Shown piece by piece: positions 1,682-27,886 of a stretch of 32,000 nucleotides of DNA. The notes beneath the pieces were generated by a model. It was not told the DNA's origin. It did no database searches and saw only the letters and a list, made by a program, of their open reading frames with translations. Source of the DNA: an uncultured delta proteobacterium (GTDB taxonomy: Bacteria; Myxococcota_A; Polyangia; Polyangiales; Polyangiaceae). Location: positions 17,166 to 49,165 of the forward strand of contig CAWEUH010000057.1 in assembly GCA_963811985.1 (NCBI GenBank), read 5' to 3'. Every line of letters starts with the position of its first letter. Position 1 is the first letter of the stretch. The translations under genes and the position numbers were made by a program.

Positions 1682-2868
1682 AGCGACAGTGCCTTCCGAT
1701 ATGCCGCTACGGATTTCCGTGCGCATTCGACCCAGCTGAATCGCGCAACTTGGCGAGGCCCTTGTTCTCGGAGCTCGGCGCGAAGCGTTTCGTCGTAGCA
1801 AAGTGACCGCAACGCTTCCGCCAACGCCACTGGGTCGCTCGGAGGAACCAACACAGCCGAATTGCCAGTGATCTCGGGAATGGAGGTGGCATTGGTGGTG
1901 ACGGTGGGTGCGCCGCAGGCCATCGCTTCCGCGACGGGCAGACCGAAACCTTCGTATTTCGACGGGAACACGTGAACGTGACAGGCGCGGTACAACGCTG
2001 CAATGTCTTTTTGGTCCACGTAACCGAGCAGCCGCACCGCGCTAGCGACGTTGGCTTTGTTGGCCAATTGCAGCAGTTGTCGCTGCCTCTTGTCCATGAT
2101 GGCACCGGCTAGCACCAAGTCGAAGTCTTTGGCGAGCCCGGCTTGCGCGAACGAGTCGATGAGTAGATCTACATTCTTTCGCGAATCGAATGCGCCAACG
2201 TAGTAGCAAAACGGACGCTTGAGGTTGTACCGCTCCATCAAGCTTGATTGTTCGTTTTCGAATTCGGGCTCCGGGCGGAACTGAGCATGATCGACGCCAA
2301 GATAGGCCACGTCGATCAAGCTTTCACTGATCCCCAAGTGCCGCACGAGATCGCTCCGTGTCGCTTGGCTGATCGCCAAGATTCTGCGCGCCGTGCCGTA
2401 GCGCTGGCTGTCCTTCCACTTGCAGTAGACACGCGCCCAGGGTTCGGGGCCAAGGTACTCTTTGTGCAAGACCAGTGGGATGAGGTCGTAGCACGTGACG
2501 ATGCGCGGAACGCGGTTGTCTCGCGGAATGACGACGGGCTCCGTGACGTGAAGCAGATCGCAGCCACGCTCGAAAGCGGCCGGCCCGAGCCCGCGGCGCT
2601 TGCGGCGGCGATAGGGCCCATTTGCAAAGCCTTGCGGGTGTACCATCTTACCCTGGTAACTTAGTCCATCGGGACCCGTTCTTTGGCCCTGGAGGTCAAA
2701 CTGCGCGATGCCGTCCACGTTCAGTTCCAGCTCCCCTGCCGCTTGAAGTTGCTGGATCCCCGACGCAAGCCCTAAGATGTATTGCCCAATACCGCGTAGC
2801 CGCGACGGCGTATCGAGCGGTGACATGTCGATGAGGACCCTGGATTGCTGGCTCTCTGAAGCGGTCAT
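1678..2868 (-). CDS. Glycosyltransferase family 4
   Basis: 396-aa ORF. The C-terminal VFPSKYEGFGLPVAEAMACGAPTVTTNATSIPEITG is the classic Glycos_transf_1 EX7E region. Confidence 0.9.
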   Translation of the reverse strand: MTASESQQSRVLIDMSPLDTPSRLRGIGQYILGLASGIQQLQAAGELELNVDGIAQFDLQGQRTGPDGLSYQGKMVHPQGFANGPYRRRKRRGLGPAAFERGCDLLHVTEPVVIPRDNRVPRIVTCYDLIPLVLHKEYLGPEPWARVYCKWKDSQRYGTARRILAISQATRSDLVRHLGISESLIDVAYLGVDHAQFRPEPEFENEQSSLMERYNLKRPFCYYVGAFDSRKNVDLLIDSFAQAGLAKDFDLVLAGAIMDKRQRQLLQLANKANVASAVRLLGYVDQKDIAALYRACHVHVFPSKYEGFGLPVAEAMACGAPTVTTNATSIPEITGNSAVLVPPSDPVALAEALRSLCYDETLRAELREQGPRQVARFSWVECARKSVAAYRKALSL

Positions 2869-3033
2869 GCTGGGCTTTCGAGGCGCGTATGTTATACGAA
2901 TCTGCGTAAATGTCGCGCGAAATGCTGATGGGACTTCTTCCCAGCCGACGCGCGAAGCCCTTGCGCAACTGGCACCGAGTGATACTGAGACTCATTCAGC
3001 AAATTCGGGCTAATTCAACTTCTCTAAGCTGAA

Positions 3034-4074
3034 ATGCGGTTTTTCTTTACGGATGAGGATCGTCGGACCGATGAGCGAGGTTCGGATATACGCGCCGCGT
3101 TGGTACACGCACGCCACAGAGTCATTCACGGCCAACCGGGCCAGCCGGCGCCCGAGGGTACGGATATCTGGATGCACGGCCTCGGGCTTGAAGGCGGGCC
3201 ACCGCTGAAGCAATCGACCGTCGATAGGTTGCTTACATCCAAGGCGGAGGTCGTGCTGCTGCAGCTGTGCGATGCCGAAACCATGTCGTTCGATTCGGTT
3301 CCGGAGGGCCTAGCGCGCCGGGCACGCTTGTTTCTGAGAAATCACTGGCCCATGGATGTGCAGCGCATCCCGGAACCCTACCGCGATCGCATCGGGTGGT
3401 TGCCGCCAATGATCAAACCCATGAAGCCTCACCCAGGCAAGCCGCTGAACAAACGGGTTCCGCGATCCGTTTTCTTCGGAACGCGAACGGGCTTTTCCAA
3501 CATGAATGATGGAATGAACGCTCGCGAGCAGACCGTACGTATCATGCGAAACTCCGGGCTTGCGTTCGAAGGCGGGCTAGTCCTGCACAAGTTCGACCAA
3601 TATCAAGTGGTTCCCGAGCTCACGGTGCCTCGCATTAGTGGGCGCACGCATGACAGGCTATTGCAGAATTCGTGCATATGTCTGGCACCCTGGGGCAATC
3701 ATCCGCTGACCTATCGTTTCTTCGAGGGGCTTGCCTATCGCTGCCTCGTCCTGGCACAGTCGATTCAGAAATGTCGGTTCTTGGACGGCGGGCTCGAACC
3801 GGGGCGGCACTTCGTTGAGGTCAACGATGACCTGAGCAATCTGGCCGAGCGAGTCGATTACTACCTCAATCACGTGGACGAAGGGCAACGCATCGCCGAT
3901 GCCGGGCACGAGCATTTCAAGCGTTTCTTCGCGTCGCGCGGGCGGCTTGTATCGGCCTGGATTTACGATGCCACCGTTGCGTCGTGGGGAACGTTATATC
4001 AGCCGAGCACGGCTCGCGATCCATTGTCGTGGTTGCGCTCGATTTATGCCCGGCTATTTTCCAATCGCATTTGA
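3034..4074 (+). CDS. Putative glycosyltransferase (CgeB-like / Glyco_trans_1_2-type C-terminal domain)
   Basis: 346-aa ORF divergent from the GT4 genes. The C-terminal half (LQNSCICLAPWGNHPLTYRFFEGLAYRCLVLAQ...HFVEVNDDLSNLAERVDYYLNHVDEGQRIADAGHEHF) resembles CgeB-type transferase domains. Judged by eye only. Confidence 0.55.
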   Translation: MRFFFTDEDRRTDERGSDIRAALVHARHRVIHGQPGQPAPEGTDIWMHGLGLEGGPPLKQSTVDRLLTSKAEVVLLQLCDAETMSFDSVPEGLARRARLFLRNHWPMDVQRIPEPYRDRIGWLPPMIKPMKPHPGKPLNKRVPRSVFFGTRTGFSNMNDGMNAREQTVRIMRNSGLAFEGGLVLHKFDQYQVVPELTVPRISGRTHDRLLQNSCICLAPWGNHPLTYRFFEGLAYRCLVLAQSIQKCRFLDGGLEPGRHFVEVNDDLSNLAERVDYYLNHVDEGQRIADAGHEHFKRFFASRGRLVSAWIYDATVASWGTLYQPSTARDPLSWLRSIYARLFSNRI

Positions 4075-5019
4075 TAGAGATCTGTGCCTCCCACGCCTAC
4101 TCACGCCAACGGCGACGGCCAGAACGCCAATTACCGCGAACGGTAGATCGGCCACGACGCGAAAGGCCGTCCAGTAACTATGCCCGCACGTGTAGAGCAT
4201 CGCCAACAGCGCGACGCCTCGCGCCACGTGCATCGCGACGAGACCTTGTAACAGCAAACTGCGTTCATTAGGCACGAACCCCCGTATGAACACGCCAATC
4301 AGAATGAACTGTGCGATCAGGAACTTGTACGTCAGGGCCGCGCCAATGAACCACGGGGCAACGCCCGCATCGCCGAACGTGCCCGCTGAAAAATCCATCG
4401 TGTTCAGTTGCAAGCCGCCCTGCAGCCCAATCCACTGGACGTAACTGAGCGCGAATAGGAACGTGAGGCTCACGAGTCGCAGCGGGTTGCTCGCCTCGGC
4501 GGCGCAAGCACGACCGACAATCTCGGCTGCCACCAGCGCTGGCACGAGAACCAGGATCTCGAAATCGCGGCACACCCAGACGTAGCTAGTGACGGCAAAA
4601 ACCCAAGCAAGTTGACGACGGCCGGCAACGTGGGCCAACAGTGCGCCCAGAGCGCAAGCAACCCAGGCGACGCGTCCCAGCCAAGATATCGCGTAGTGTC
4701 GCAAGACGAAACTGAGTAGCGCGGCAAACACGCCAACGACGACCCAGTGCATCTCGGCAGCCATTGGTCGATTTCCTTTGTGTTGCTGCGGCCCAGACTC
4801 GGTGCGTGCGCCCGCGTTCACGATGGGACAGCGCATCGCGTTGAGCAACCAAGCAAACCCCGCAGCCAGCAAGACTGCAGCCATGACCGCGGCTTTCGTC
4901 GGGGTTTCGCTAAAGAACTTGGGGCAGACGTCGCTTGGGTGCGTGCCTGCTAAGGCGAGCAGCGCAATCGCCGTGAGTAGAATGGCACTCGCACAGATCC
5001 TCGCAGCCGGTGACGCCAT
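4054..5019 (-). CDS. Polytopic integral membrane protein, function unknown
   Basis: 321-aa ORF that is almost entirely hydrophobic, with at least 8 apparent TM segments. Sits in the glycan cluster. No catalytic motif recognised. Overlaps the convergent 3034..4074 gene by 21 nt. Confidence 0.6.
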   Translation of the reverse strand: MASPAARICASAILLTAIALLALAGTHPSDVCPKFFSETPTKAAVMAAVLLAAGFAWLLNAMRCPIVNAGARTESGPQQHKGNRPMAAEMHWVVVGVFAALLSFVLRHYAISWLGRVAWVACALGALLAHVAGRRQLAWVFAVTSYVWVCRDFEILVLVPALVAAEIVGRACAAEASNPLRLVSLTFLFALSYVQWIGLQGGLQLNTMDFSAGTFGDAGVAPWFIGAALTYKFLIAQFILIGVFIRGFVPNERSLLLQGLVAMHVARGVALLAMLYTCGHSYWTAFRVVADLPFAVIGVLAVAVGVSRRGRHRSLSNAIGK

Positions 5020-6793
5020 CTCTCGTGCTCGTGCCCGAGGTTGTGTTCGCCCTATTCCCTGCGCGGGACTTTCGTTCGCCCCTCCCTAAATCCCTCCCCG
5101 CCTGGGGAGGGACTTTGAACCCCCCAAATCCCCCCAGTCTTGGGGGGATATCTCGGCGCGATTGCTTCGCGTCGCATATTTGAGATCGATCGAGACGAGT
5201 TCGCCCCTCCCTAAATCCCTCCCCGCCTGGGGAGGGACTTTGAACCCCCGGTGGTTTGCATACTCTGCCTGTGCCCTGTGTTGCGCGGGCGTGCAACCAA
5301 ATGCCCAACGCGACGATGCATGCGTAGGCCTCGATCTGTGTGTTGGTCGTGTAGCTGACGAGCAACCAACCCGGCAGCACGCCCAAAATCAGCGCCCAGT
5401 GTCGTTCGAAACGCGATGCCCATGACTTGAAGCGAATGACCGCAGCAACCAGGCAGGCATTGGCTACCAGGAAGAGCAAAGCCCGAATCAGGTTGGGCAG
5501 ATTGCCCGAAAGTCGTTCGACTGAGTACGTAAGCGCCAACGCGCAGCCAAGCCAAACCGCGCCAATGAGCACCGCGCGTGGTGCACGCCTGCCGTAGATG
5601 ACGACGGCTGCAGCCAGCGCCGCAAGGCCTAAAATAGCAAGCCAATGCCAGCCGTGATGGGCATGCGTGCCCTGCACTTGCCCCTGGGCATTGTCGTAGT
5701 TATGGGACAGTTGGCGCGTCTGCTCAATGCAGCGGCGGTTGTCCCCGACATTGTCGCAGCAGTCGCGAATTGCATCGCCTGCCTCTTGGCGGGAGATCTG
5801 CGGCAACAGCGCAGCAAGGCGCCGAGTCTCCGAACAGGCAAGGCGCCGTTCGGTTTCGGGAGATTGCTCGAGCCATTCGAAGGGCACACGGCCGCGTGCC
5901 TGCTGTGCCGTCGGCACACCGAGCAGCGCGCTCAGCAGCCCAGGAAGGTCGACTTGATCCAGGGCGCGCGACGGATGAATCGAGGGGCGTATTCCAGGCC
6001 CGTAGGCGAATAGCGGGCAGCGCCGCTGTTCGGTGGTGTCTGTCCCGTGCGTGCCACTGTCGGCGGCTCCGTGATCGCTCGTTACGATGACGGTCCAGTT
6101 TGGCCCAAACGAACCGAGCCATTCGAACAGCCTGCGATCGAAGTGCTGCATGTGGCTGGCATAGCGCGACGACTTGATGCCCCATGCATGACCCTGGTGG
6201 TCGGGCGTGACGAAGTGAACGACTAGGAAATCGGGCGATCTGCGCTGCAGTTCACGGGCGTCACGGAACGTTATCGCGTTGAAGTCCGTCTCGGTCGTAA
6301 CCCCTTGAGGGTCCGGTCGAAATGTTTCAAAGGCATCGCCGTAAAGCTGTGACCACGCGGGATCGCCTGCGCCCATCAACCCGAGGCCTGCGTGCTTGGC
6401 ATTGTGGAGCCAGTCATTGACGCTCGCTCGCGGCGGGTGTAAATTCTCGAGGATCTGATCGAGATCGCCCCTTTGCCCCGTGCCGTAAGCGAGCACGGCA
6501 CTCGACGTCATGGTGATGCGGCCCGCCCAGACCTCGCTGCTTGCGCGCTTGAGAAGTGCTGCGGCAAATTGCGGCATGGTCGCCGAGTCGTTGGCGACAT
6601 CCCAACGCAGCCCGTCGACAATCACAAGTAGCACGTGACTCGTAAGGCGTTGTCCTGGGCCCCTTGCTGCGGCTTGCGGCGGGTCGCGGGACGGCGGCGT
6701 CACCGGTCGAACCGCGACCAATGTTGCGTTGATTGAAGCGAGGATCCAAACGCCAAGTAGCAGACCAAGAAGCGCAATTTTGCGCCTGGACAT
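4910..6793 (-). CDS. Alkaline-phosphatase-superfamily membrane enzyme (type I phosphodiesterase / phosphoethanolamine-transferase-like)
   Basis: ORF 4910..6955, with the start moved to ATG 6793 (MSRRKIALLGLLLGVWILA, an N-terminal membrane anchor). Core motifs LLVIVDGLRWD, HFVTPDHQGHAWG and VIVTSDHGAADSGTHG are followed by about 5 TM helices. The last ~115 codons (below ~5255) read through repeat DNA and then out of frame over the next gene, so the true 3' end is uncertain. Confidence 0.8.
   Translation of the reverse strand: MSRRKIALLGLLLGVWILASINATLVAVRPVTPPSRDPPQAAARGPGQRLTSHVLLVIVDGLRWDVANDSATMPQFAAALLKRASSEVWAGRITMTSSAVLAYGTGQRGDLDQILENLHPPRASVNDWLHNAKHAGLGLMGAGDPAWSQLYGDAFETFRPDPQGVTTETDFNAITFRDARELQRRSPDFLVVHFVTPDHQGHAWGIKSSRYASHMQHFDRRLFEWLGSFGPNWTVIVTSDHGAADSGTHGTDTTEQRRCPLFAYGPGIRPSIHPSRALDQVDLPGLLSALLGVPTAQQARGRVPFEWLEQSPETERRLACSETRRLAALLPQISRQEAGDAIRDCCDNVGDNRRCIEQTRQLSHNYDNAQGQVQGTHAHHGWHWLAILGLAALAAAVVIYGRRAPRAVLIGAVWLGCALALTYSVERLSGNLPNLIRALLFLVANACLVAAVIRFKSWASRFERHWALILGVLPGWLLVSYTTNTQIEAYACIVALGIWLHARATQGTGRVCKPPGVQSPSPGGEGFREGRTRLDRSQICDAKQSRRDIPPRLGGFGGFKVPPQAGRDLGRGERKSRAGNRANTTSGTSTRDGVTGCEDLCECHSTHGDCAARLSRHAPKRRLPQVL
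5074..5250. repeat. REP/MITE-like composite: 52-nt unit A, module M1, 52-nt unit A
   Basis: gttcgcccctccctaaatccctccccgcctggggagggactttgaaccccc occurs identically at 5074-5125 and 5199-5250. Each copy holds a 9-bp GC hairpin (tccctcccc/ggggaggga, loop gcct). Between them lies an 8-bp hairpin (atcccccc agtctt ggggggat, 5128-5149) followed by the core cttcgcgtcgcatatttgagatcgatc (5165-5191). Confidence 0.85.
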
Positions 6794-7134
6794 CGAGCAC
6801 CCAAATATATTTGTGGGTTCGCCGACGTACCGAGACGTGGTCTTTGAATCAACAATAGGCGAAATCGCTACGGTCAGGGTGCCACCCGCGAGCGCAAGGC
6901 TACGACGAAATCTTTCCGTCCTTCCGCCCTTCCTGTGCAATCCCAACAGGGGCACAAAATGCCGCCGAGTTTCTCCGTAGTGCGGAAGGTCGGAAGATTT
7001 GCAGGCAATCGCTGACCCGTTGGCCGTTCAGCGCTAGAAGCGAGCCATTTGAAGCACTGCGGAGCCACGTGCCGCCGCGGCAAGAAAATCGGAACCAGGC
7101 GCCGCGCGCGGCATTTGTGGTATCAACGCGAGTC

Positions 7135-20268: not shown

Positions 20269-20615
20269 GGGGGCGATCGGTTTCGACGTGGGGACTGAAC
20301 GTTGGCTTGCGTGCGGTGGGCTCCCAGACCACTTCAAAAATGGGACGTATTAATTGCGAACGATAATGCAATCGCTCTGGCGGCCTAAGAAACCATAGAG
20401 CCGTCCGACCGTGAGATTGTCTTGGTAGCGGAAGGGCGTCAGCACTAAGGCTGGGCCGGCGACGTGGCCTCCGTCGTCGCCAGCTGAGAAAAGTCGGAGG
20501 CTAGGTGGTGACCGAATTCACCAACTCAGTCGCCAGGGATATGGCGACTATGCACGTGAATGAGGGTCGATGGGATGCCTTGCGGACCGGGGTTCGATTC
20601 CCCGCGCCTCCACCA
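20269..20615 (+). ncRNA. ssrA: tmRNA (transfer-messenger RNA)
   Basis: The 5' GGGGGCGATCGGTTTCGACG pairs with the 3' CGCCTCC-ACCA, including the G3:U wobble that is the alanine identity element. T-arm CGGGG-TTCGATT-CCCCG. Internal tag ORF at 20356-20388: GCG AAC GAT AAT GCA ATC GCT CTG GCG GCC TAA = ANDNAIALAA. Length 347 nt. Confidence 0.93.
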
Positions 20616-21362
20616 ATGAAATGAATTCGAACCTTCTTCCGCAACGAGGAGGTTCAAACTATCGACGTTGCACCGGACCTTGAAATAAGGACGCCCCACT
20701 TCAGGCTTTTCTGGAGTGAGCGTCACGGGACCGGTGAGTCGTCTCAGGGCCAACGCTGACTTCTCTGTCCGCTTGGCTAGGAGCTCGTTCAGGTTCTTCA
20801 GGCGATCGGCAATCCAGGCACGAGGCGGCGGCGTAAACGCTTCAGCTGTCGCATGTGTCATGCTCTCAACGTCAGTCTTGAGCGTCTTCACCTGCTTCTC
20901 GGCTTCAGCCAGGGCGTCCGAGAGCGCTCCAGTTGCCCGGCCGCTGGCGATGAACTCAATGAAGTTATGAACGCGAGTCTCTGCGCGGTTGAGCTCCAGT
21001 CTCTTCAATCGGAGCTCCTCGGGCACATGCGCAAACTGCTCTTTGATCTTCTCAGCGGTCCGTTCGTAGATGGCCGCGAGCACTTCAGGCTTGAGTACCT
21101 CGTCATTCAGAGTCGCAAGAAACTTCTCCTCAAGGCGCCTACGCGCAATCAGTACTCTGTTATCACAGGCGTGCCGCGACGCGTTCAGGCAACCGTAGTA
21201 ACCGGCACCTTTTCCGCTCACCAGGCCGATGGCGCCTCCGCAATTCCCGCATTTCAAAGCGCCTGACAGCAAATGCGTCGGGTGTGAGACAACGTAGCTC
21301 TTTCGCTGGCCCTCAAAGCCTCGCATTCCACTGCCGCTCGGGCTCGGAACTAGCCCATCCAA
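20526..21362 (-). pseudogene. Large serine recombinase, C-terminal fragment only (zinc beta-ribbon plus coiled coil; resolvase catalytic domain missing)
   Basis: HLLSGALKCGNCGGAIGLVSGKGAGYYGCLNASRHACDNRVLIARRRLEEKFL is the recombinase zinc-ribbon pattern, followed by a coiled-coil region. No N-terminal Ser-catalytic or recombinase domain is present. The last 30 codons (..WWRRGESNPGPQ..) are merely the antisense of the ssrA 3' end. Confidence 0.75.
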
Positions 21363-22002
21363 CCCGAAGGTAAAACGTCCCCTCCGGCGGCAGCACCGCG
21401 TGGCCAGCCTTCGTCAACGCCTCGCCGAGCGCGTCGCGGCGACGTTCGAGCGCTCGAACGTCGATCGACAAACCTTCAACGTGGGGAACGGCATTTTGCA
21501 TGACGGCGTTCGGAAAGCACCAGCCAAGCGCCATCTGGGTCGAGTACATCGCATCGCGGAGCAGCTGACGGTCCACGGTTGGCATCGTCGGCGCAATCGC
21601 CAGGTACCCGAGGCGTTGCCCAGGCGCGAGCAGGACTTTGCCATAGCTATACGAGATGAGCGTCCAGGGATAGAGAGCCGCTGGGCTGACGAAGTCGCGG
21701 CCGTCGAGACGCAGGCGGCGATAGGGCTCGTCCGACAACAGGAAGATATGGCGACCGATCCGGCGCGAGGCGCGCTCCGAGAGCTCTGCGCCGCTGGGCA
21801 TGCTCGAGAAGGTGCGTTGGGAGTCGCCGACCCCGCCTGCCCAATTAACTAACCCAAGATCTACGTAACACACTCGTGCCGGCGACATATGTCTCGATAG
21901 AACCTCGGCCAATGCGACTTTAGCCAGGCATTCCAAGCTTTCAAAAGGGCGCGCTGCGCTTGGGACAATCTGACAATCAGGCGACGCGGGAGTATGTGAC
22001 AT
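21313..22002 (-). pseudogene. Class I/II PLP-dependent aminotransferase, internal fragment
   Basis: IFLLSDEPYRRLRLDG...LISYSYGKVLLAPGQRLGYLAIAP (S-x-S-K/PLP-lysine block followed by R-x-G-Y) and LPPEGTFYLRV are aminotransferase motifs. The ~130 N-terminal residues (including N-P-x-N-P-T-G) and the C-terminal ~60 residues are absent. The 3' end abuts the recombinase fragment. Confidence 0.65.
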
Positions 22003-22330
22003 GATTCCAAGAAACGACAATCTCAGACTTCGGCCTCGTTTTTCCCTTAGAAGCGCACTCTCACGCCGAACAATCCTTGCGGTCTGCGCGATTGCGTTGT
22101 CGCTTGTGGCCTGCGCGAATCGAAAGAGCGCCGATGATGTCAATGTAAAGGGTGGTTCGTTATCAGCTAAGCTCACGGCCGCCCCGGTAGATGCGGAACA
22201 CTCGGCGTCAACCTCTGGAGCCATTGCCGCCAATTCGGGAGCGCCGGGCACGGGCACCCCCGCCGCACGCACTATCAAGAGCTGCCCTTTGCCCCCGCCA
22301 GGAGCCAAGCCTGCCTGTAGCAGGACTTAG
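22001..22330 (+). CDS. Small putative lipoprotein
   Basis: 109-aa ORF with signal peptide plus lipobox RRTILAVCAIALSLVAC. It lies antisense to the non-homologous 5' extension of ORF 21313..22308, so only one of the two can be real. Confidence 0.4.
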   Translation: MIPRNDNLRLRPRFSLRSALSRRTILAVCAIALSLVACANRKSADDVNVKGGSLSAKLTAAPVDAEHSASTSGAIAANSGAPGTGTPAARTIKSCPLPPPGAKPACSRT

Positions 22331-22662
22331 CAAAACAGTAGTTTGCCCTTCTGAAGGTAAGACCGCCTGTATGTGCGACTTGCGATTTCGTTACGATATG
22401 CGTCACAAAAAGATCTCACCTCATGATTCTTGGGGTCTGCCAACCGCGGATTCGTCTTCCCGGGAACAAGCCGCAAGAATTCTCGCTAGCGGCGTAACAC
22501 TTCACGGCCTTTGCCATATGCCCATCTTGACCGCGCCCCTTTGGTGGGCGCGACAGAGCACACACGCGTTGCGTCTGCGATCGGGGCATTGGTGCATTGA
22601 ACGCTGGCGCGAAGCGTGGGGCTTGATGGCATGCTGTGTGTTTAACGATTGAGAGGGATATT

Positions 22663-24972
22663 ATGCGGTTCAACTCATTGAGTACGTTTGGCTTGTTTGG
22701 GTCTCTGTCCATATTGGCCTGTTCGAGCAACAATCCTGGGCCTTCCGATAACGGAACCAGTGGCGGCATGACCGGTGCCCCGACTGGAGGTGCCATGACA
22801 ACCGGCGGCATGTCAAACATGGCTGGTGCGTCGAGTCTGGCGAGCACCGGTGGAGTGATGTCTACAGGCGGCGTACCAAACACCGGTGGGATGATGACGA
22901 GCGGCGGGATGTCCACCTCGGGTGGCATGATGGCAACCGGTGGCATGATGGCAACCGGTGGCATGATGGCAACCGGTGGCATGATGGCAACCGGTGGCAT
23001 GATGGCAACTGGTGGCATGATGGCAACCGGTGGCATGATGGCAACCGGTGGCATGATGATGACCACTGGAGGCATGACGAATGCAGGCGGCATGACGGCG
23101 GCCGGCGGCATGTCCACTGTAGCTGGCATGCCGAGTATGGGTGGCATGAGCGGCGTCACAAACTTCAAGTTGCGCATCGAAAACACGTCAACCAATTCGG
23201 CGCTTCCAACGTTGGTGGCACCCGGTGCTTATGCCGTCGTAAGCGGAACGACCAAGCCATTTACAAGCGATATGATTGCTTCCGCGGGCCTTGAGAAGGC
23301 TGCGGAGGATGCCAACCCTGCGATGCTTGCTGCAGAAATCATGGGCGCGCAGGGCGTTGCTGCGTCAGGCATTTTCAACGTTCCCGTTGGGGCGAGTTCT
23401 GCGGGACCCCTGAATCCTGGCGATGCGTATGAATTCACCTTCAGTGCAACGCCCGGCCAGACCTTGCACTTTGCGTCCATGTTCGGACAATCCAATGATA
23501 CCTATTTCAGCGCGGCTTCGGGCATAACGTTGTTTGACGGCACCAACAGCCCTGTAAGCGGAGACGTCACATCGGTTATCTCGCTTTGGGATGCAGGCAC
23601 CGAACGCAATGAAGCTCCCGGAATGGGCCCCAATCAGGCGCCGCGGCAACCCGCACCCAACACGGGTCCCACCGAAGCGGGCGTATCTTTGCGGACGGAC
23701 GGCACGCGCTCGATCCCAATCCCGAGTGCATTGGTTAACGTAAGCGTGTCCCTGACGGGCAGCGCCTACACCGTGACGCTAACAAACAAATCAGACAAAG
23801 GGCCGCTCATGAGCCCGCTTTCGCCTGCATTTTACGCGTTACACAATTCCGCCTATCACTACTTCACCGCCGGGGCCGCGGCCTCCGCTGGCCTTGAGCG
23901 GCTTGCGGAAGAAGGCAACACGTCCGTTTTGGTCACCGAAGCCAACGCCGCAGGCGCCGTAGCCGCAACGGCGGGCACTGCCGCTTATGGTCCGGGCGCA
24001 TCGGTCATGTTCACCGTGACTCCGAGCAGTGCCATGCCGTTATTGAGTATGGCCATGATGATCGGTCAAACGAATGATGTTTTTATCGGCACGCGCCCGC
24101 AAGGTGTCCCCCTTCTCGACACCGCCAGCATGCCGCGAGCAGCCGCCGACGTGCAAAAGGACATTATGAACCTGTTGGCAGTCTGGGACGCAGGAACCGA
24201 GGCCAACGAAGTGCCTGGCGTCGGCCCCAACCAAGCGCCGCGACAACCAGCCGCCAATACGGGCCCGGCCGATCCAATCAATATGGTGCGCCTTTATGCC
24301 GACAGCACCAATGATCTGGCTCATTTGTCCGGTTTCGTGAACGTCATGACCACCCACGGCATGGGGTCGAGCTTTAGCGTAACGGTCTCGAATACGAGCA
24401 GCGGCAGCACATTCCCGCTCATCATGTCACCGGTCGCGTGGGCCGTGCACGGCGACTCATTTACTTCGTTTGCGCTCGGGGCACCCGCGTCGCCTGGCCT
24501 CGAGCATCTGGCGGAAGACGGTGCTTCAACGACCTTGCTCGCCGAATGGGGCGCTGACAGCATGGTAAGCGGTTCAGGTGTCGCAGGAACGGCGCCGTTC
24601 AGCGGCGGCAATTCGGTGACCTTCCAAGCAACTCCGGATTCAACGCACCGATACTTGAGCCTCGAGGCGATGCTCGTGCCGTCCAATGACACGTTCGCGG
24701 CGCTCGGACCCATGGGAATTGCATTGCTGGATACCTCGGGCAATCCGCGCAGTGACAGCGATATCGCGGCGGATGTCATGACGAATTTAGCTGCCTATGA
24801 GTCAGGGACAGAAGCCAATCAGGGCAGCGCCCTGGGCCCAGACATGGCACCGTACCAATCCGCACCCAACACCGGCGCAAACGAAGGGTCCGGAAGAGTA
24901 CGACCTATCGACGGAGTCTGGCCGTTCCCCGCGGTGCCGCAGGTGCTCAAAGTCACGCTAACGCCCCTGTGA
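22663..24972 (+). CDS. Lipoprotein with a Met/Gly-rich repeat tract and three tandem spondin_N-like domains
   Basis: ORF 22636..24972. Start set at ATG 22663, preceded by GAGAGGGA. MRFNSLSTFGLFGSLSILAC is a signal peptide plus lipobox. ORF residues ~43-171 carry ~31 Met in GGM/GGMM motifs. Three ~190-aa repeats follow (approx 23155-23703, 23725-24303, 24328-24969), each with ..GLE.LAE(D/E)G.., ..SND.F.. and WDAGTE.NE.PG.GPNQAPRQPA.NTGP (degenerate in the third). Confidence 0.9.
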   Translation: MRFNSLSTFGLFGSLSILACSSNNPGPSDNGTSGGMTGAPTGGAMTTGGMSNMAGASSLASTGGVMSTGGVPNTGGMMTSGGMSTSGGMMATGGMMATGGMMATGGMMATGGMMATGGMMATGGMMATGGMMMTTGGMTNAGGMTAAGGMSTVAGMPSMGGMSGVTNFKLRIENTSTNSALPTLVAPGAYAVVSGTTKPFTSDMIASAGLEKAAEDANPAMLAAEIMGAQGVAASGIFNVPVGASSAGPLNPGDAYEFTFSATPGQTLHFASMFGQSNDTYFSAASGITLFDGTNSPVSGDVTSVISLWDAGTERNEAPGMGPNQAPRQPAPNTGPTEAGVSLRTDGTRSIPIPSALVNVSVSLTGSAYTVTLTNKSDKGPLMSPLSPAFYALHNSAYHYFTAGAAASAGLERLAEEGNTSVLVTEANAAGAVAATAGTAAYGPGASVMFTVTPSSAMPLLSMAMMIGQTNDVFIGTRPQGVPLLDTASMPRAAADVQKDIMNLLAVWDAGTEANEVPGVGPNQAPRQPAANTGPADPINMVRLYADSTNDLAHLSGFVNVMTTHGMGSSFSVTVSNTSSGSTFPLIMSPVAWAVHGDSFTSFALGAPASPGLEHLAEDGASTTLLAEWGADSMVSGSGVAGTAPFSGGNSVTFQATPDSTHRYLSLEAMLVPSNDTFAALGPMGIALLDTSGNPRSDSDIAADVMTNLAAYESGTEANQGSALGPDMAPYQSAPNTGANEGSGRVRPIDGVWPFPAVPQVLKVTLTPL
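22921..23046 (+). repeat. Seven head-to-tail copies of an 18-bp unit (ggtggcatgatggcaacc) encoding (GGMMAT)7
   Basis: Six units are identical and one (22993-23010) differs by a synonymous C>T. An eighth, degenerate unit follows (ggtggcatgatgatgacc). Confidence 0.95.
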
Positions 24973-24993
24973 TCGCGTCCGAGACAAGCCGGT

Positions 24994-25031
24994 CAAGTGC
25001 CGAGGGCATGCCCCTCGGCGCTTGGCTTTTT
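24994..25031 (+). terminator. Rho-independent terminator of the spondin-like gene
   Basis: 13-bp stem caagtgccgaggg / ccctcggcgcttg (one G:U pair), loop catgc, then gcTTTTTg. Begins 22 nt after the stop codon. Confidence 0.65.
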
Positions 25032-25075
25032 GTGACCATCGAACAGTCTGACGGCGCAGGCTGGCAGAGGTCCAG

Positions 25076-25915
25076 TTAGCTTCTTTCCGACGCGCTCCGT
25101 GACCGAAATCGAGCGAACACAATTGCAGCACCGATGCAGACGAGCAACACCAAGCCTACAGTGGCATGACCCAGGAGTTGGTGAGCGGGCTGCTCATTGG
25201 GGCAATGCAGCAACAGGGCGAAATTGCCAGTGACGCCGCCAATGCTCGCCGCGAGCGTCAAAAAGAGGCGGCCGCGAGCGAGTTGGCGATCCATCGCGAC
25301 GAATAGCACTATGCAGGGAAGTGAAAGAAACGTCCCGTACCGCAAGCAGACCGCAGCCTGGTAGAGAAATGAACGCTGAATCTCGACGTGAGAGGCTGGT
25401 TGAGCATAGGCGGGAGCCAACGCAGCCAGGATGAAGGGCAGACAAAAAGCGAGAGCGGCCGCCGACGCTAGCGCCCGAGAAGACTTCGGCCGATACAAGG
25501 GGGTGAGGAGCGTCCTAGTCGCAAAGACCACGATGGCCAAATACATCACCACCGCCAATACAAGGCGTGGCAGCGGGTAGTCACCAAGGTCGTGTCTCCG
25601 GGAAAATGCCAATTGGGCTGCAGCAGGTAACAATGCGACGCTTACGGCAAGGGCTAGGCGCAAGGGCGTCTGTCGGCTACGCAACCATGCGAGTAGCCCT
25701 CGCTCCCGTGAAAGCTGAAGCTGTGTTTGACTCAGTAAGCTCGCAACATCAATTGCGCCAGCGTTCGCGTTCGAAACGGACTCGAGTTCATTGGCCGCGG
25801 GGAGCTCAATCATTTCCTGACACACGGCACATTGTGCCAGATGCTCCAGCGCCGCTTCCGACAGTTCGTCTTGTCGCAACAGATGGCGGCGCGTTTCATC
25901 GCAGGTCCAATTCAT
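25076..25915 (-). CDS. Anti-sigma factor: N-terminal zf-HC2 (ZAS) motif plus ~6 TM segments (NrsF/DUF1109-like architecture)
   Basis: 279-aa ORF. MNWTCDETRRHLL...EHLAQCAVCQ carries the C...H-x3-C-x2-C motif. The remainder is polytopic membrane. Its ATG overlaps the sigma gene stop (ATGA). Confidence 0.8.
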   Translation of the reverse strand: MNWTCDETRRHLLRQDELSEAALEHLAQCAVCQEMIELPAANELESVSNANAGAIDVASLLSQTQLQLSRERGLLAWLRSRQTPLRLALAVSVALLPAAAQLAFSRRHDLGDYPLPRLVLAVVMYLAIVVFATRTLLTPLYRPKSSRALASAAALAFCLPFILAALAPAYAQPASHVEIQRSFLYQAAVCLRYGTFLSLPCIVLFVAMDRQLARGRLFLTLAASIGGVTGNFALLLHCPNEQPAHQLLGHATVGLVLLVCIGAAIVFARFRSRSASERS

Positions 25916-26484
25916 GGCCCACGCCCCTTATCTATGTCGATATCATTGGAAATGTTACCGGACGAAAGCAATTTACGTAACGCTGTATAGCCGCGGTGAG
26001 CCCGAACGCGGACTGCGCCCGCACTGGCCCCAACCTTTTCTGCGATTTCCTCGAAGGATAGCTCTTCCACGAAGTGCAGGCGCACTACCTCCTGCTGGTC
26101 GTTCGGTAATTGCTGAATCGCATGAGACAAGTCTCGGCGGAGTTCGAAACGACGCTGTTCGTCGGGCTGGTGAGCGTGCTTGATCTCAGCCGTCGCGTCT
26201 AGCTCCGCCTCCGGCCGACGACGGGCCCGGCGCAACTGTTCCCTCGCAAGGTTGAATGCGATGGTCATCAGCCACGGGCGCAATTCGCAGTCTGGGTGGA
26301 AGTCGTTCCGGGCCCTGTGCAGTTGCAAGAAAGTCTGCTGCACGAGGTCAGCCAATTGGTCCTTGCTGGGTCCAAATCGCCGCAGGACGCGCTCAAGAAT
26401 GGGCGCGTAGCGGGAAAAGAGTTCGCCGAAGGCCACGGTGTCTCCCCCGCAGTAGGCCAACATGAGCTCTTCATCGCTCTTCAC
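25912..26484 (-). CDS. ECF (group 4) RNA polymerase sigma-70 factor
   Basis: 190-aa ORF with a GTG start. Region 2 (DEELMLAYCGGDTVAFGELFSRY..DLVQQTFLQLHRA...RPWLMTIAFNLAREQLRR) and region 4 (LPNDQQEVVRLHFVEELSFEEIAEKVGASAGAVRVRAHRGYTALRKLL). Confidence 0.92.
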   Translation of the reverse strand: MKSDEELMLAYCGGDTVAFGELFSRYAPILERVLRRFGPSKDQLADLVQQTFLQLHRARNDFHPDCELRPWLMTIAFNLAREQLRRARRRPEAELDATAEIKHAHQPDEQRRFELRRDLSHAIQQLPNDQQEVVRLHFVEELSFEEIAEKVGASAGAVRVRAHRGYTALRKLLSSGNISNDIDIDKGRGP

Positions 26485-26746
26485 AAATCCAGTCTATAGC
26501 CGAATAGCAAGCTCAGGCCAAGGACCCCCGCGCCGCCTTCCAACGAGCCTACCCAGACCTGCCCCATTCGGACGAGACGGGCCAATTCGGCGAGGGAGAA
26601 CGATACGTCGTGGGAAACGGCTCCCGCCGCAACAAGATTCGAACGTTGATTGTAACGCACAGACGCGCTGCACGTACCTAGCATTGGCATCGTTGATTCG
26701 CTCGCATTGTTACGAGCGCTGCACGGTGTCGAGAGGAACAAAAACG

Positions 26747-27886
26747 ATGAGAACCTATGTCCGTGAGATATTTCTAATTCCGTTGTGTTTGTCAACTACC
26801 ATGGCCTGCGCCGAAGCATCAAGTGATGAAACATCGACGCCTGCGACCGCAGAAGAAGCGCTAATTGGCCAGCACGGCGAGGGTGCCGTGTTTACGATGA
26901 GCAATGCCGCCGCCGGCAATACGGTGTTAGCGTTTCATCGCATGCAAGATGGTTCGCTAGGGGCCGCTGGCGAATATCCAACGGGCGGACTTGGATCGGG
27001 CGCAAGCCTCGGTTCACAGGGCTCCGTGACGTTATCGGAGGATGGCCACTATTTGGTGGTGGTCAATGCGGGTAGCGACGAGATTTCGAGCTTCGAAGTC
27101 CGCGGAACTCAGCTTACGTTGCGCTCTCGGCTTCCCTCTGGAGGTTCTCATCCGACCAGTGTTGCCGTGCGAGACCAGCTCGCATACGTGCTCAATGCGG
27201 GTCAAGACAGCAACATTTCCGGCTTCTGGCTCGATCCGCTGGGACGACTGTTCGCAATTCCCGGTTCAACGCGAGCACTGAGCGCCGCGATGCCCTCAGC
27301 GGCGCAAGTCGCGATAGCGCCAAGGGGCCTCGGCGTAGTCGTAACGGAAAAGGGAACGAGCCTGATCGATACGTTTGCGTTCCGGCGCAACGGAACACTC
27401 GAGAACGCCGTTACTCACGCCTCGTCGGGTAGCACTCCTTACGGATTCGATATTTCTCAGGACGGCACGGTCGTTGTTTCCGAGGCCGCCGCTGGTGCCG
27501 CTTCATCCTACTCATTGACAGGGAGCGGTGGTTTTTTGACGATTTCGGGCTCCATCGGTGATAATCAGAAGGCTCCCTGTTGGCTCATTATAACCAAAGA
27601 CGGCCAGTTCGCATATACCGCAAATGCAGGCAGCAGCTCGATATCGGGCTATGAATTGGCGCACGATGGCTCGCTGCAACTTCTCGACCCGAACGGGGTT
27701 ACGGCATCGACTGGTGAAAACGGAAAGCCGCTCGACGTGGCAGTTGACCGCAACCAGCATCTTTATGCTCTCGCTGCGGGCAATCACGTCATCGACGGTT
27801 TTGCGATTGGCAACACGGGCGCATTGACACCGGTGTCAAGCACCACGGGCCTGCCGGAAACCACGGTTGGTATCGCGGCGTTCTAG
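26747..27886 (+). CDS. Secreted beta-propeller lactonase-family protein (7-bladed, 6-phosphogluconolactonase-like)
   Basis: ORF 26462..27886, with the start set at ATG 26747, preceded by GAGAGGA. Signal peptide MRTYVREIFLIPLCLSTTMAC. Repeated blade motifs (DGHYLVVVNAGSDEISSF, LAYVLNAGQDSNISGF, DGQFAYTANAGSSSISGY, HLYALAAGNHVIDGF). Confidence 0.85.
   Translation: MRTYVREIFLIPLCLSTTMACAEASSDETSTPATAEEALIGQHGEGAVFTMSNAAAGNTVLAFHRMQDGSLGAAGEYPTGGLGSGASLGSQGSVTLSEDGHYLVVVNAGSDEISSFEVRGTQLTLRSRLPSGGSHPTSVAVRDQLAYVLNAGQDSNISGFWLDPLGRLFAIPGSTRALSAAMPSAAQVAIAPRGLGVVVTEKGTSLIDTFAFRRNGTLENAVTHASSGSTPYGFDISQDGTVVVSEAAAGAASSYSLTGSGGFLTISGSIGDNQKAPCWLIITKDGQFAYTANAGSSSISGYELAHDGSLQLLDPNGVTASTGENGKPLDVAVDRNQHLYALAAGNHVIDGFAIGNTGALTPVSSTTGLPETTVGIAAF

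What the first reader, a model, noticed from the sequence alone, without database searches (positions are those of the whole stretch)
22663..24972. Lipoprotein combining an extreme Met/Gly-rich tract with three tandem spondin_N-like domains
Seen in sequence: a lipoprotein signal (..LSILAC) is followed by ~128 residues in which I count ~31 Met, almost all as GGM / GGMM / GGMMM, with no charged residues. Three ~190-aa internal repeats follow, sharing GLE.LAE(D/E)G, SND.F and WDAGTE.NE.PG.GPNQAPRQPA.NTGP. Established knowledge: the repeat pattern matches what I recall of bacterial spondin_N (PF06468-type) domain proteins, whose function in bacteria is not established. Clustered Met motifs in CopA/PcoA, CueO, CusF, PcoE/SilE and Ctr1 bind Cu(I)/Ag(I), and Met-rich surfaces can also act as oxidant sinks. 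Inference: this could be an envelope-tethered soft-metal-binding or oxidant-buffering arm that presents a triple spondin module. I do not know of this combination having been described.
Basis: partly seen in the sequence, partly recalled or inferred. Interest (0 to 1): 0.8.

Follow-up and report, generated by a model that had tools for sequence, protein, structure and literature searches.

The report
Stress-promoter spondin lipoprotein with methionine-rich tether
This gene encodes a membrane-anchored bacterial protein with three spondin-type domains on a long floppy tether made mostly of glycine and methionine, and several independent clues (its promoter, its neighbours, its relatives) suggest, without proving, that it belongs to an envelope defence against oxidants or toxic metals.

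Summary
ORF 22663-24972 (+) encodes a 769-aa lipoprotein (lipobox LSILAC, Cys20). Residues 21-165 form a disordered tether: residues 30-165 hold 31 Met and 43 Gly and no charged residue. Three F-spondin (FS) domains follow (Pfam, NCBIfam, AlphaFold, Foldseek to 3Q13/3D34), and each keeps the two motifs that form the Ca2+ site in F-spondin.

New findings:
- The tract's core is an 18-bp tandem repeat (7.7 copies, 98% matches), so its length is young. Met-richness is nevertheless kept in every orthologue with an N-terminus down to about 59% identity.
- Other lipoprotein tethers in the same contigs have 0.5% Met, against 9.5% in spondin tethers.
- Chemically different Met-rich segments (D-M, E-M, T-M) recur in 9 of 150 mutually distant spondin clusters.
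- An ECF-type promoter, GTAAC-N16-CRTA, precedes the spondin gene in 23 Myxococcota loci (about 0.1 expected). It also precedes the nearby Lactonase-propeller gene.
- An ECF sigma factor and an NrsF-family anti-sigma lie next to the gene in 7 loci. NrsF systems are known to drive Met-rich HOCl scavengers (MrpX/BcrX) and copper defences.

Most likely this is a stress-induced envelope protein whose tether acts as a sacrificial thioether sink. This is unproven, and a neutral tether remains a serious rival.

The parts
22494..22518 (+). ECF-type promoter motif GTAAC-N16-CATA, 144 nt upstream of the ATG
   Evidence: The pattern has 4 matches in the window against 0.14 expected. It lies upstream of the spondin gene in 23 Myxococcota loci, where about 0.07-0.15 would be expected by chance. 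Function as a promoter is inferred.
22651..22658 (+). Shine-Dalgarno-like GAGAGGGA
   Evidence: Read from the sequence. Conserved in the 5 close relatives.
22663..24972 (+). Coding sequence of the 769-aa triple-spondin lipoprotein, stop codon included
22663..22722 (+). Signal peptide with lipobox LSILAC; Cys20 is the lipidation site
   Evidence: The same N-terminus occurs in the orthologues.
22723..23157 (+). Disordered Gly/Met/Thr-rich tether (residues 21-165). The Met-rich part is residues 34-163, with 31 Met.
   Evidence: Composition. pLDDT is below 50 throughout.
22921..23058 (+). 18-bp tandem repeat GGTGGCATGATGGCAACC (GGMMAT), 7.7 copies, 98% matches
23158..23727 (+). FS (spondin) domain 1, about residues 166-355, with motifs QSNDTY (N278, D279) and WDAGTE (G312, E314)
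23728..24327 (+). FS domain 2, about residues 356-555, with QTNDVF (N471, D472) and WDAGTE (D509, G511, E513)
24328..24969 (+). FS domain 3, about residues 556-769, with PSNDTF (N675, D676) and YESGTE (E717)
24991..25037 (+). Intrinsic terminator (16-bp stem plus T-run) 19 nt after the stop codon, so the gene is monocistronic
25076..25915 (-). Membrane anti-sigma factor of the NrsF family, with an N-terminal HxxxCxxC motif and two invariant Cys in the membrane domain
   Evidence: Pfam PF06532 scores 39.6 bits against a cut-off of 26.8. Alignment of 7 homologues.
25912..26484 (-). ECF sigma factor, overlapping the anti-sigma gene by 4 nt
   Evidence: Orthologues lie next to spondin genes in 7 loci.
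26652..26676 (+). Second copy of the promoter motif (GTAAC-N16-CGTA), 71 nt upstream of the Lactonase gene
26747..27886 (+). Secreted 7-bladed beta-propeller (Pfam Lactonase PF10282), a probable functional partner
   Evidence: The same domain is fused to triple-spondin proteins P0046, P0058, P0059, P0066, P0073, P0079, P0086 and P0092, and lies adjacent in L017 and L018.
22370..22394 (-). Divergent copy of the promoter motif, conserved at the same distance in L002 and L089. Its target in the window is unclear.
21865..21889 (+). Further copy of the motif, upstream of a 109-aa lipoprotein-like ORF (22001-22330)
   Evidence: The ORF is conserved only in L004.

Best explanation
What it is (shown or strongly supported). 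This is a monocistronic gene for an envelope lipoprotein. A lipidated Cys20 is followed by a tether of about 145 residues that is intrinsically disordered, uncharged and rich in Gly and Met. Three F-spondin (C2-like) domains follow and pack into one folded module. Each domain keeps the SND.F and (D/E)(A/S)GTE motifs that form the Ca2+ site in F-spondin. The gene is preceded by an ECF-sigma-type promoter that is conserved across Myxococcota, and it lies beside an ECF sigma / NrsF-type anti-sigma pair.

How it most likely works (inferred). The protein is made when an envelope stress releases an ECF sigma factor. The stress would be the thiol- or thioether-reactive kind that NrsF sensors detect: HOCl-type oxidants, Cu, Cd or Cr. 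The spondin module docks, probably through Ca2+, onto an anionic envelope ligand or onto a beta-propeller partner. The 31 exposed thioethers of the tether act as a local sacrificial sink for oxidant (Met to Met-sulfoxide). This is the same chemistry that other NrsF regulons deliver as free Met-rich peptides (MrpX, BcrX). Slippage of GGM-type units sets the sink's capacity and the tether's reach.

The stated confidence applies to the oxidant-sink mechanism. Confidence in the anatomy is about 0.9. Confidence that the motif is an ECF promoter is about 0.75.
For: Anatomy. The Ca2+-site motifs are described in PMC3117680, and the matching columns are invariant in the homologue alignment.

Met content looks maintained and specific:
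- All orthologues with an N-terminus at 59-89% identity have tethers with 9-28% Met, although their sequences cannot be aligned.
- In 12 tethers there are 203 Met, against I 7, L 10, K 10 and R 3, which are all one mutation away from Met.
- 22 non-spondin lipoprotein tethers in the same contigs hold 7 Met in 1405 residues. 18 spondin tethers hold 135 in 1415 (p = 4e-33).
- Met-rich segments of different chemistry and position occur in 9 of 150 clusters at 50% identity or less, against 7 of 2098 background ORFs (p = 1.6e-7).

Regulation:
- GTAAC-N16-CRTA lies upstream of 23 spondin genes, where about 0.1 is expected.
- It shares the -35 element, and nearly the spacer length, with the ECF16/SigF site GTAACC-N16-CGAA (PMC3511200; PMC8315932).
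- An orthologous sigma plus an NrsF-like anti-sigma lie next to spondin genes in the window and in L002, L005, L007, L008, L084 and L031, while the outer flanks differ.
- The anti-sigma keeps two invariant Cys, as NrsF does (PMC3511200).

Precedent: SigF/NrsF drives MrpX (20% Met) and BcrX as HOCl scavengers (PMC4436054; PMC8315932).
Against: - No msrP/Q or msrA/B gene lies in the window or in the 9 annotated related loci. MrpX and BcrX are operonic with msrPQ.
- The promoter's -10 element differs from ECF16 (CRTA against CGAA). No such motif precedes the sigma genes, so the adjacent sigma is only a candidate regulator. It is also convergent with the spondin gene, not co-transcribed.
- The promoter also precedes Met-free family members (L011, L015, L030). 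The stress link therefore belongs to the spondin family, not to the Met tract.
- Tether flavours (Lys-, Thr-, Asp-rich) also persist within clades, so inheritance combined with slippage could explain why Met persists.
- One non-spondin lipoprotein in L024 also carries a DMADM tether.
- Nothing here measures oxidation, metal binding or expression.
Confidence: 0.35

Rival explanations
1. Neutral tether. The family needs only a long, flexible, low-complexity linker between the lipid anchor and the spondin module. Which third residue accompanies Gly (Met, Thr, Lys, Asp) is set by which unit happened to be amplified by replication slippage and was then inherited. On this view Met has no function of its own.
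For: - The core is an 18-bp repeat of 7.7 copies at 98% identity, so it expanded recently.
- Tether length ranges from about 80 to 165 residues among close orthologues, and the sequences cannot be aligned.
- Other clades have GKGGSAG, GTGGTAG or acidic tethers under the same promoter.
- ACG (Thr) to ATG (Met) is a single transition.
- There is no Msr or copper gene context.
Against: - Other Gly-rich lipoprotein tethers in the same contigs have 0-1 Met in up to 190 residues.
- Met outnumbers its mutational neighbours I, L, K and R by 203 to 30.
- Met-rich segments arose in at least three unrelated chemistries, and also inside domains and at C-termini of distant family members.
- Met is rare, costly and oxidation-prone.
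Confidence: 0.3
2. Cu(I)/Ag(I) buffer. The thioether-rich arm captures soft metal ions in the envelope, as the Met motifs of CusF, PcoE/SilE, CopA/CueO or Ctr1 do, and either sequesters them or passes them to a partner.
For: - In Caulobacter, SigF/NrsF is the core copper-stress regulon and drives copper-binding bufferins (PMC11626156). NrsF also responds to Cr and Cd (PMC3511200).
- Other spondin clades carry acidic D/E-Met segments that include MxM runs such as DMAMDMGD.
- SCO1/SenC lies a few genes upstream in L002.
- A flexible Gly-rich chain can wrap three or four thioethers around Cu(I) (established coordination chemistry, own knowledge).
Against: - This tract has only 1 MxM and 3 MxxM. 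Most Met are MM pairs spaced by four or five residues.
- It has no His, Cys, Asp or Glu co-ligands.
- No cop, cus, pco or sil gene lies in the window or in the related loci.
- Met-only sites bind Cu(I) only at micromolar affinity (own knowledge).
Confidence: 0.2
3. Redox-switchable tether. Met oxidation changes the hydrophobicity and compaction, or the self-association, of the uncharged Gly/Met chain. This would alter how far the spondin module reaches or whether the proteins cluster. The tether would then be a sensor or actuator rather than a sink.
For: - The tract is uncharged and consists only of G, M, T, S, A and N, which is unusual for a soluble disordered chain.
- Met-rich low-complexity domains whose assembly is controlled by oxidation are known in eukaryotes (yeast Pbp1, own knowledge; review PMC8394241, listed but not read).
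Against: No direct evidence. The acidic Met-rich variants in other clades would not behave in this way.
Confidence: 0.07

Closest known systems
MrpX (Azospira suillum) and BcrX (Brucella melitensis): Met-rich periplasmic HOCl scavengers of SigF/NrsF (ECF16) regulons
   Same: Exported. About 20% Met. Encoded beside an ECF sigma and an NrsF-family anti-sigma with two conserved Cys. The promoter has a GTAAC -35 element and a spacer of 16-17 nt.
   Different: MrpX and BcrX are small free peptides, rich in charged residues (MXKDX repeats), and co-transcribed with msrPQ. Here the Met-rich chain is uncharged and Gly-rich, is covalently part of a 769-aa lipoprotein, has no msr gene nearby, and its promoter has a -10 element of CRTA rather than CGAA. 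No NCBIfam match to an MXKDX-type family was found in any Met-rich spondin protein tested.
F-spondin and mindin FS domain (PDB 3Q13, 3D34; Pfam PF06468)
   Same: Fold (Foldseek E = 3e-6 to 7e-6). Profile match. The two signature motifs that supply the Ca2+ ligands.
   Different: The animal proteins have one FS domain set among reelin-N and TSR domains, with disulfides and glycans. Here three FS domains sit in tandem, with no Cys in the mature protein after the lipidated Cys20, on a bacterial lipoprotein. The ligand is unknown.
NCBIfam NF038123 'spondin domain-containing protein' (bacterial, function unknown)
   Same: Clear member: E = 1e-97 with three copies. Hundreds of triple-domain homologues occur in Myxococcota, Chloroflexota, Planctomycetota, Bacteroidota and others.
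   Different: No publication on the bacterial family's function, regulation or Met-rich appendages turned up in the library searches made here. The only mention found is of two Spondin_N genes in a putative operon with an H2O2-producing L-amino-acid oxidase (PMC6316408).
Met-motif Cu(I)/Ag(I) binders (CusF, PcoE/SilE, the Met-rich inserts of CopA/PcoA/CueO, Ctr1 Mets motifs)
   Same: Clustered thioethers in an exported, flexible segment.
   Different: Those use MxM, MxxM or MxxH patterns, often with His or Asp, and are encoded in copper or silver operons. Neither holds here.
Bufferins (SigF/NrsF-controlled periplasmic copper-binding RiPPs of Caulobacter)
   Same: A protective periplasmic product of an NrsF-type regulon. 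This is a functional analogy only.
   Different: Unrelated chemistry: Cys-derived thiooxazoles made by MNIO enzymes. No homology.

Membership tests
Spondin_N / FS domain (PF06468, NF038123) | Profile match above the curated cut-off | tested here: met
   PF06468 scores 61 bits against a cut-off of 24. NF038123 scores 326 bits against 40, in 3 stretches.
Spondin_N / FS domain (PF06468, NF038123) | Eight-stranded C2-like beta-sandwich fold | tested here: met
   AlphaFold2 domains have pLDDT above 90. The top Foldseek hits are 3q13_A and 3d34_A/B at probability 1.00.
Spondin_N / FS domain (PF06468, NF038123) | Signature motifs PSPDW and DAGTD, which supply the Ca2+ ligands | tested here: met
   SND(T/V)(Y/F) and (D/E)(A/S)GTE occur in all three domains. 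N278/D279, N471/D472, N675/D676, E314, D509/E513 and E717 are invariant in 45 homologues. The motif roles come from PMC3117680.
Spondin_N / FS domain (PF06468, NF038123) | Actual Ca2+ binding | not testable with these tools
   Needs ITC or a crystal structure.
Bacterial lipoprotein | Signal peptide followed by a lipobox [LVI][ASTVI][GAS]C | tested here: met
   The N-terminus reads MRFNSLSTFGLFGSLSILAC, with Cys20. Conserved in the orthologues.
MrpX/BcrX-type Met-rich scavenger system | Exported polypeptide with about 20% Met | tested here: met
   31 Met in 136 residues, or 23%.
MrpX/BcrX-type Met-rich scavenger system | Small free peptide rich in charged residues (MXKDX repeats) | tested here: not met
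   The tract has no charged residue and is part of a 769-aa lipoprotein. There is no MXKDX-type family hit.
MrpX/BcrX-type Met-rich scavenger system | Co-transcribed with msrPQ (yedYZ) | tested here: not met
   No Oxidored_molyb, Ferric_reduct, PMSR or SelR gene lies in the window or in the related loci. The gene has its own terminator.
MrpX/BcrX-type Met-rich scavenger system | Adjacent ECF sigma plus NrsF-family anti-sigma | tested here: met
   PF06532 is above its cut-off. There are two invariant Cys. Adjacency holds in 7 loci. The orientation is convergent here, divergent in L084 and same-strand in L031.
MrpX/BcrX-type Met-rich scavenger system | ECF16 promoter (T/C)GTAAC-N17-CGAA | tested here: inconclusive
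   There is no exact ECF16 site near the gene. The conserved motif is GTAAC-N16-CRTA, with the same -35 element, a spacer one nucleotide shorter and a different -10 element.
MrpX/BcrX-type Met-rich scavenger system | Oxidised by HOCl in vivo and repaired by MsrP | not testable with these tools
   Needs biochemistry.
Met-motif Cu(I)/Ag(I) binding proteins | MxM or MxxM (Mets) motifs, often with His or Asp | tested here: not met
   Counts are MxM 1, MxxM 3, MM 10, Mx4M 10 and Mx5M 21. There is no H, D or E.
Met-motif Cu(I)/Ag(I) binding proteins | Copper or silver resistance gene context | tested here: not met
   No such gene lies in the window. The only related gene is an SCO1/SenC a few genes upstream in L002.
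Met-motif Cu(I)/Ag(I) binding proteins | Measured Cu(I) or Ag(I) binding | not testable with these tools
   Needs BCS/BCA competition, ITC or ICP-MS.
ECF16 (SigF) sigma factors (the neighbouring sigma) | Sequence membership in ECF group 16 | not tested
   Only generic ECF models were available. The assignment rests on the NrsF-family partner.

The most novel reading that the evidence does not exclude
Met-rich low-complexity arms and bacterial spondin domains may together form a widespread, unrecognised envelope-defence module. A thioether buffer for oxidants or soft metals would be physically coupled to a Ca2+-dependent C2-like docking module, often with a beta-propeller partner. In Myxococcota the module would be wired to an ECF16-like sigma/NrsF stress sensor, making it a tethered counterpart of the free MrpX peptide. 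This would give the bacterial spondin domain its first functional context.
Probability: 0.25. Interest if true: 0.75.

Novelty: new variant of a known kind. Interest (0 to 1): 0.6.

Why it matters
In the library searches made here, no function was found for bacterial spondin-domain proteins, although the family is large (more than 5,400 clusters at 50% identity). This locus supplies three testable handles:
- a conserved ECF-type promoter that defines a small regulon (the spondin lipoprotein, a beta-propeller lipoprotein, and possibly a small lipoprotein);
- a candidate sensor pair from the NrsF family, whose known outputs are defences against HOCl and copper;
- a recurrent pairing of the domain with Met-rich segments.

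If the Met arm is a sacrificial sink, it would extend the MrpX principle from free peptides to surface-tethered proteins, and from Proteobacteria to Myxococcota and Chloroflexota. If it is neutral, it is still a clean example of how slippage shapes lipoprotein tethers.

Tried and rejected
- Exact ECF16 consensus (GTAAC-N14-20-CGAA and GTAA-N14-21-CGAA). The matches were at chance level and none lay at a relevant position.
- The GTAAC-N16-CRTA motif upstream of the sigma genes, allowing one mismatch and a spacer of 15-17 nt. Only one match appeared, a weak one in L084, so there is no evidence of autoregulation. The sigma genes instead share TATTCGGnTATAa just before the GTG start.
- A homology search with the Met tract alone. 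Composition filters left one irrelevant hit.
- Literature on bacterial spondin function. Nothing beyond one gene-neighbourhood remark.
- An MXKDX/MrpX-type family match in Met-rich spondin proteins. None.
- Antisense ORF 22416-23195 (259 aa, MPPVAI repeats). Rejected as a gene because it is the reverse reading of the repeat, whereas the + strand ORF has hundreds of homologues.
- Synteny as the explanation for the sigma/NrsF adjacency. Partly rejected: the outer flanks differ in the window, L002, L005 and L007, and the pair reappears in other orientations in a Kofleriaceae MAG and a Planctomycetota MAG. It is absent from L001, L003, L004 and L006.
- Identifying the source organism. The exact protein is not in the collection, and the best representative genome hit is 54% identical, in a Polyangiaceae MAG.
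- An Rfam family in the 5' UTR. None.
Full report
**1. Observation**

The window holds an ORF at 22636/22663-24972 on the + strand. The ATG at 22663 is the likely start. It is preceded by GAGAGGGA, and the orthologues begin with the same MRFNSL. That gives 769 residues.

The N-terminus is a lipoprotein signal with lipobox LSILAC and Cys20. Residues 30-165 contain 31 Met, 43 Gly, 22 Thr, 16 Ala and 12 Ser, and no charged residue. 26 of the Met sit in 16 GGM, GGMM or GGMMM units.

The remainder matches Pfam Spond_N (E = 2e-16) and NCBIfam NF038123 'spondin domain-containing protein' (E = 1e-97, three stretches).

**2. Anatomy**

An AlphaFold2 model built on 45 homologues (mean pLDDT 82, pTM 0.76) leaves residues 1-165 disordered, with pLDDT below 50. 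It folds three beta-sandwich domains at about 166-355, 356-555 and 556-769, each with pLDDT above 90. The high pTM, despite 20% disorder, suggests that the three domains form one rigid module.

Foldseek against the PDB returns the FS domains of F-spondin (3Q13) and mindin (3D34) as the only convincing hits. A profile search of PDB sequences gives the same two.

In F-spondin the Ca2+ ion is held by Asp residues of the two family signatures, PSPDW and DAGTD (PMC3117680). All three bacterial domains keep the equivalents, SND(T/V)(Y/F) and (D/E)(A/S)GTE, and these columns are invariant across 45 homologues. Ca2+ binding itself is inferred.

A strong intrinsic terminator at 24991-25037 follows the stop codon, so the gene is monocistronic.

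**3. The Met tract at the DNA level**

Positions 22921-23058 are an 18-bp tandem repeat, GGTGGCATGATGGCAACC, with 7.7 copies at 98% identity. The central GGMMAT run is therefore a very recent slippage expansion. The flanking parts of the tract are degenerate versions of the same theme, with varied codons.

**4. Is the Met tract strain-specific?**

It is not. Among 172 homologues, every relative at 59-89% identity that retains an N-terminus has a Met-rich tether with 9-28% Met. These are P0001-P0008, P0010, P0012 and P0013. Their lengths differ (about 80-165 residues) and so do their repeat units, for example GGMGMMxT in P0005. More distant Myxococcota homologues have Gly-rich tethers with little or no Met, in GGT, GGS or GKGG types.

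Across 12 Met-type tethers there are 203 Met. Ile, Leu, Lys and Arg, each one mutation away from Met, number only 7, 10, 10 and 3.

The decisive control is other proteins from the same DNA. 22 non-spondin lipoprotein tethers in the fetched loci contain 7 Met in 1405 residues (0.5%). That set includes Gly-rich tethers of 70-190 residues in the closest relatives' contigs. 18 spondin tethers contain 135 Met in 1415 residues (9.5%) (p = 4e-33).

**5. Recurrence across the family**

Unrelated Met-rich chemistries appear elsewhere in the family:
- an acidic D-M tether in a Myxococcota clade (P0091, P0093, P0098 and L024; for example DDMAMDMGDVTPDMDPPDMEDDM);
- an acidic E-M tether in a Chloroflexota lipoprotein (L086);
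- a T-M run (P0094);
- a long C-terminal D-M insertion (P0234);
- an insertion directly after a conserved His inside a domain (P0227);
- MMDKDTMDTD repeats (P0219).

An exhaustive profile search found 5,420 clusters (at 50% identity) in the family. Among the best 150 representatives, 9 have at least 7 Met in some 40-residue window. The background is 7 of 2098 non-spondin ORFs from the fetched loci (p = 1.6e-7).

Two caveats apply. The background consists of six-frame ORFs rather than curated genes. One Cys-rich lipoprotein in L024 also carries a DMADM tether, so the association is an enrichment and not exclusive.

**6. Regulation**

Every spondin gene in the first eight loci is preceded by GTAAC-N16-C(A/G)TA on the coding strand, 71-179 nt before the start codon. 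The pattern occurs four times in the window, against 0.14 expected.

Across about 1.6 Mb of fetched loci, nearly all occurrences lie directly upstream of a spondin lipoprotein gene. There are 21 such loci, plus L088 and L089, all from Myxococcota. Chance would give about 0.1. The spacer and the flanks are not conserved between distant loci, as expected for a two-box promoter.

The motif also precedes Met-free family members (L011, L015, L030). It is therefore a property of the family and not of the Met tract.

The -35 box and the spacer resemble the ECF16/SigF site: GTAACC-N16-CGAA in Caulobacter (PMC3511200) and (T/C)GTAAC-N17-CGAA (PMC8315932). The -10 box differs.

In the window the other three copies lie as follows:
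- upstream of the Lactonase-propeller gene (26652);
- upstream of a small lipoprotein-like ORF (21865);
- divergently at 22394 on the - strand. This last copy is conserved in L002 and L089.

**7. Neighbours**

Convergent with the spondin gene are an ECF sigma factor (25912-26484) and, overlapping it, a membrane anti-sigma (25076-25915). The anti-sigma passes the Pfam NrsF threshold.

The orthologous pair lies next to spondin genes in L002, L005, L007 and L008, in the same convergent arrangement but with different outer flanks. It lies divergently in a Kofleriaceae MAG (L084) and on the same strand, upstream, in a Planctomycetota MAG (L031). It is absent from L001, L003, L004 and L006.

The seven anti-sigma sequences share two invariant Cys in the membrane domain (GC and LHCP..H.L.GH). 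This matches the two conserved periplasmic Cys that are needed for NrsF function (PMC3511200). Most of them also have an N-terminal HxxxCxxC motif.

NrsF systems respond to HOCl in Azospira and Brucella. There they drive the Met-rich scavengers MrpX and BcrX together with MsrPQ (PMC4436054, PMC8315932). In Caulobacter they respond to Cu, Cr and Cd and drive copper-binding bufferins (PMC3511200, PMC11626156).

The sigma genes lack the GTAAC-N16-CRTA motif. Assigning this sigma factor to this promoter is therefore an inference from adjacency and from the similarity of the -35 box.

**8. Partner**

The Lactonase 7-bladed propeller gene two positions downstream carries the same promoter motif. The same Pfam domain is fused to triple-spondin proteins in at least eight clusters and lies adjacent in two Chloroflexota loci. 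The D-M clade has a gluconolactonase-like (SGL) propeller protein immediately downstream. This points to a functional pairing whose chemistry is unknown.

**9. Mechanism and rivals**

The best-supported reading is a stress-induced envelope lipoprotein. Its spondin module docks by Ca2+ onto an envelope ligand or a partner, and its exposed thioether-rich tether acts as a local sacrificial sink for HOCl-type oxidants. It would be a tethered analogue of MrpX. Confidence is 0.35.

The rivals are:
- A neutral slippage-shaped tether (0.30). This is supported by the young repeat, by the other tether flavours under the same promoter and by the lack of msr genes. It is weakened by the control tethers and by the recurrence of Met-rich segments.
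- A Cu(I)/Ag(I) buffer (0.20). This is supported by the copper role of SigF/NrsF and by the acidic Met variants elsewhere in the family. It is weakened by the scarcity of MxM/MxxM motifs, the absence of His and the absence of a copper gene context.
- A redox-switchable tether (0.07).

Nothing here measures expression, oxidation or metal binding.

**10. Comparison and novelty**

The protein is a clear member of the bacterial spondin-domain family (NF038123). It is not a member of the MrpX/BcrX family: it is not a free charged peptide and it is not linked to msrPQ. It may nevertheless work like one. It does not meet the sequence or context criteria of the classical Met-motif copper binders.

I found no paper on the function or regulation of the bacterial spondin family, or on its Met-rich appendages. 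The only mention is of two Spondin_N genes in a putative operon with an H2O2-producing amino-acid oxidase (PMC6316408).

I rate this a new variant of a known kind, with interest 0.6. The solid new results are the conserved promoter, the NrsF-type neighbour and the family-wide enrichment of Met-rich segments. The function remains a hypothesis.

Noticed in passing
window 20269-20615 (+), 20526-21362 (-), 21313-22308 (-): A tmRNA gene (Rfam 139 bits; tag ANDNAIALAA) is followed directly by a remnant of a large serine recombinase, of which only the Zn-ribbon part remains. Next comes an ORF whose C-terminal 150 residues alone match aminotransferases. This looks like the scar of an element integrated at ssrA, and it explains why synteny with the closest relatives (L002, L004) stops just upstream of the spondin promoter.
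   Followed up: partly
window 22416-23195 (-): A 259-aa antisense ORF made of MPPVAI repeats is the reverse reading of the GGMMAT repeat. Gene callers may report it. The truncated call of P0002, which starts at MMATGG, shows that the many in-frame ATGs also confuse start prediction.
   Followed up: yes
window 22001-22330 (+): A 109-aa ORF with a lipoprotein-like signal (LSLVAC), preceded by a copy of the GTAAC-N16-CATA motif at 21865. It is conserved only in L004, at 75% amino-acid against 85% nucleotide identity, so its coding status is doubtful.
   Followed up: partly
window 22370-22394 (-); L002 7710-7734 (-); L089 5050-5074 (-): A divergent copy of the ECF-type motif lies 100 nt from the spondin promoter and is conserved in three loci. 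In L089 it faces a 368-aa protein of unknown function followed by a different ECF sigma. In the window its original target seems to have been lost to the rearrangement.
   Followed up: partly
window 22530-22560; alignment A2: The 5' UTR of about 145 nt is conserved among close relatives. It contains a GC-rich hairpin (CGCGCCC...GGGCGCG) just downstream of the predicted transcription start. There is no Rfam match.
   Followed up: partly
window 26485-26520 (- strand view); L002, L005, L007: The sigma genes share TATTCGGnTATA(A/G) about 12 nt before their GTG start. This looks like a housekeeping-type -10 box and would give a leaderless or very short-leader mRNA.
   Followed up: no
P0046, P0058, P0059, P0066, P0073, P0079, P0086, P0092; P0063, P0074, P0081; P0124-P0126: Triple-spondin modules are fused to Lactonase propellers and to CHRD and CBM_4_9 domains. 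Some proteins of 1,462-2,171 aa carry two complete triple modules.
   Followed up: partly
L024 998-2917 (+): A Cys-rich lipoprotein of 639 aa with no Pfam match carries a DMADMPDMADMADMADMADM tether. It lies 3 kb upstream of the D-M-type spondin gene in the same MAG.
   Followed up: partly
L086 3593-9459: The Chloroflexota spondin lipoprotein with the E-M tether is flanked by an OmpR-type response regulator and a HAMP histidine kinase, a PrsW-family protease, and a DsbA-like thioredoxin fused to cyclophilin. This is an envelope-stress or oxidative-folding context that uses a different regulator type.
   Followed up: partly
L002 4301-7502: In the closest full-length relative (88% identity), SCO1/SenC, MOSC and OsmC genes lie just upstream of the spondin gene. 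These relate to copper delivery and peroxide stress.
   Followed up: no
window 461-6955: A cluster of three or four glycosyltransferases and a phosphodiesterase/TgpA-like membrane protein, probably for envelope polysaccharide synthesis. It is unrelated to the finding.
   Followed up: no
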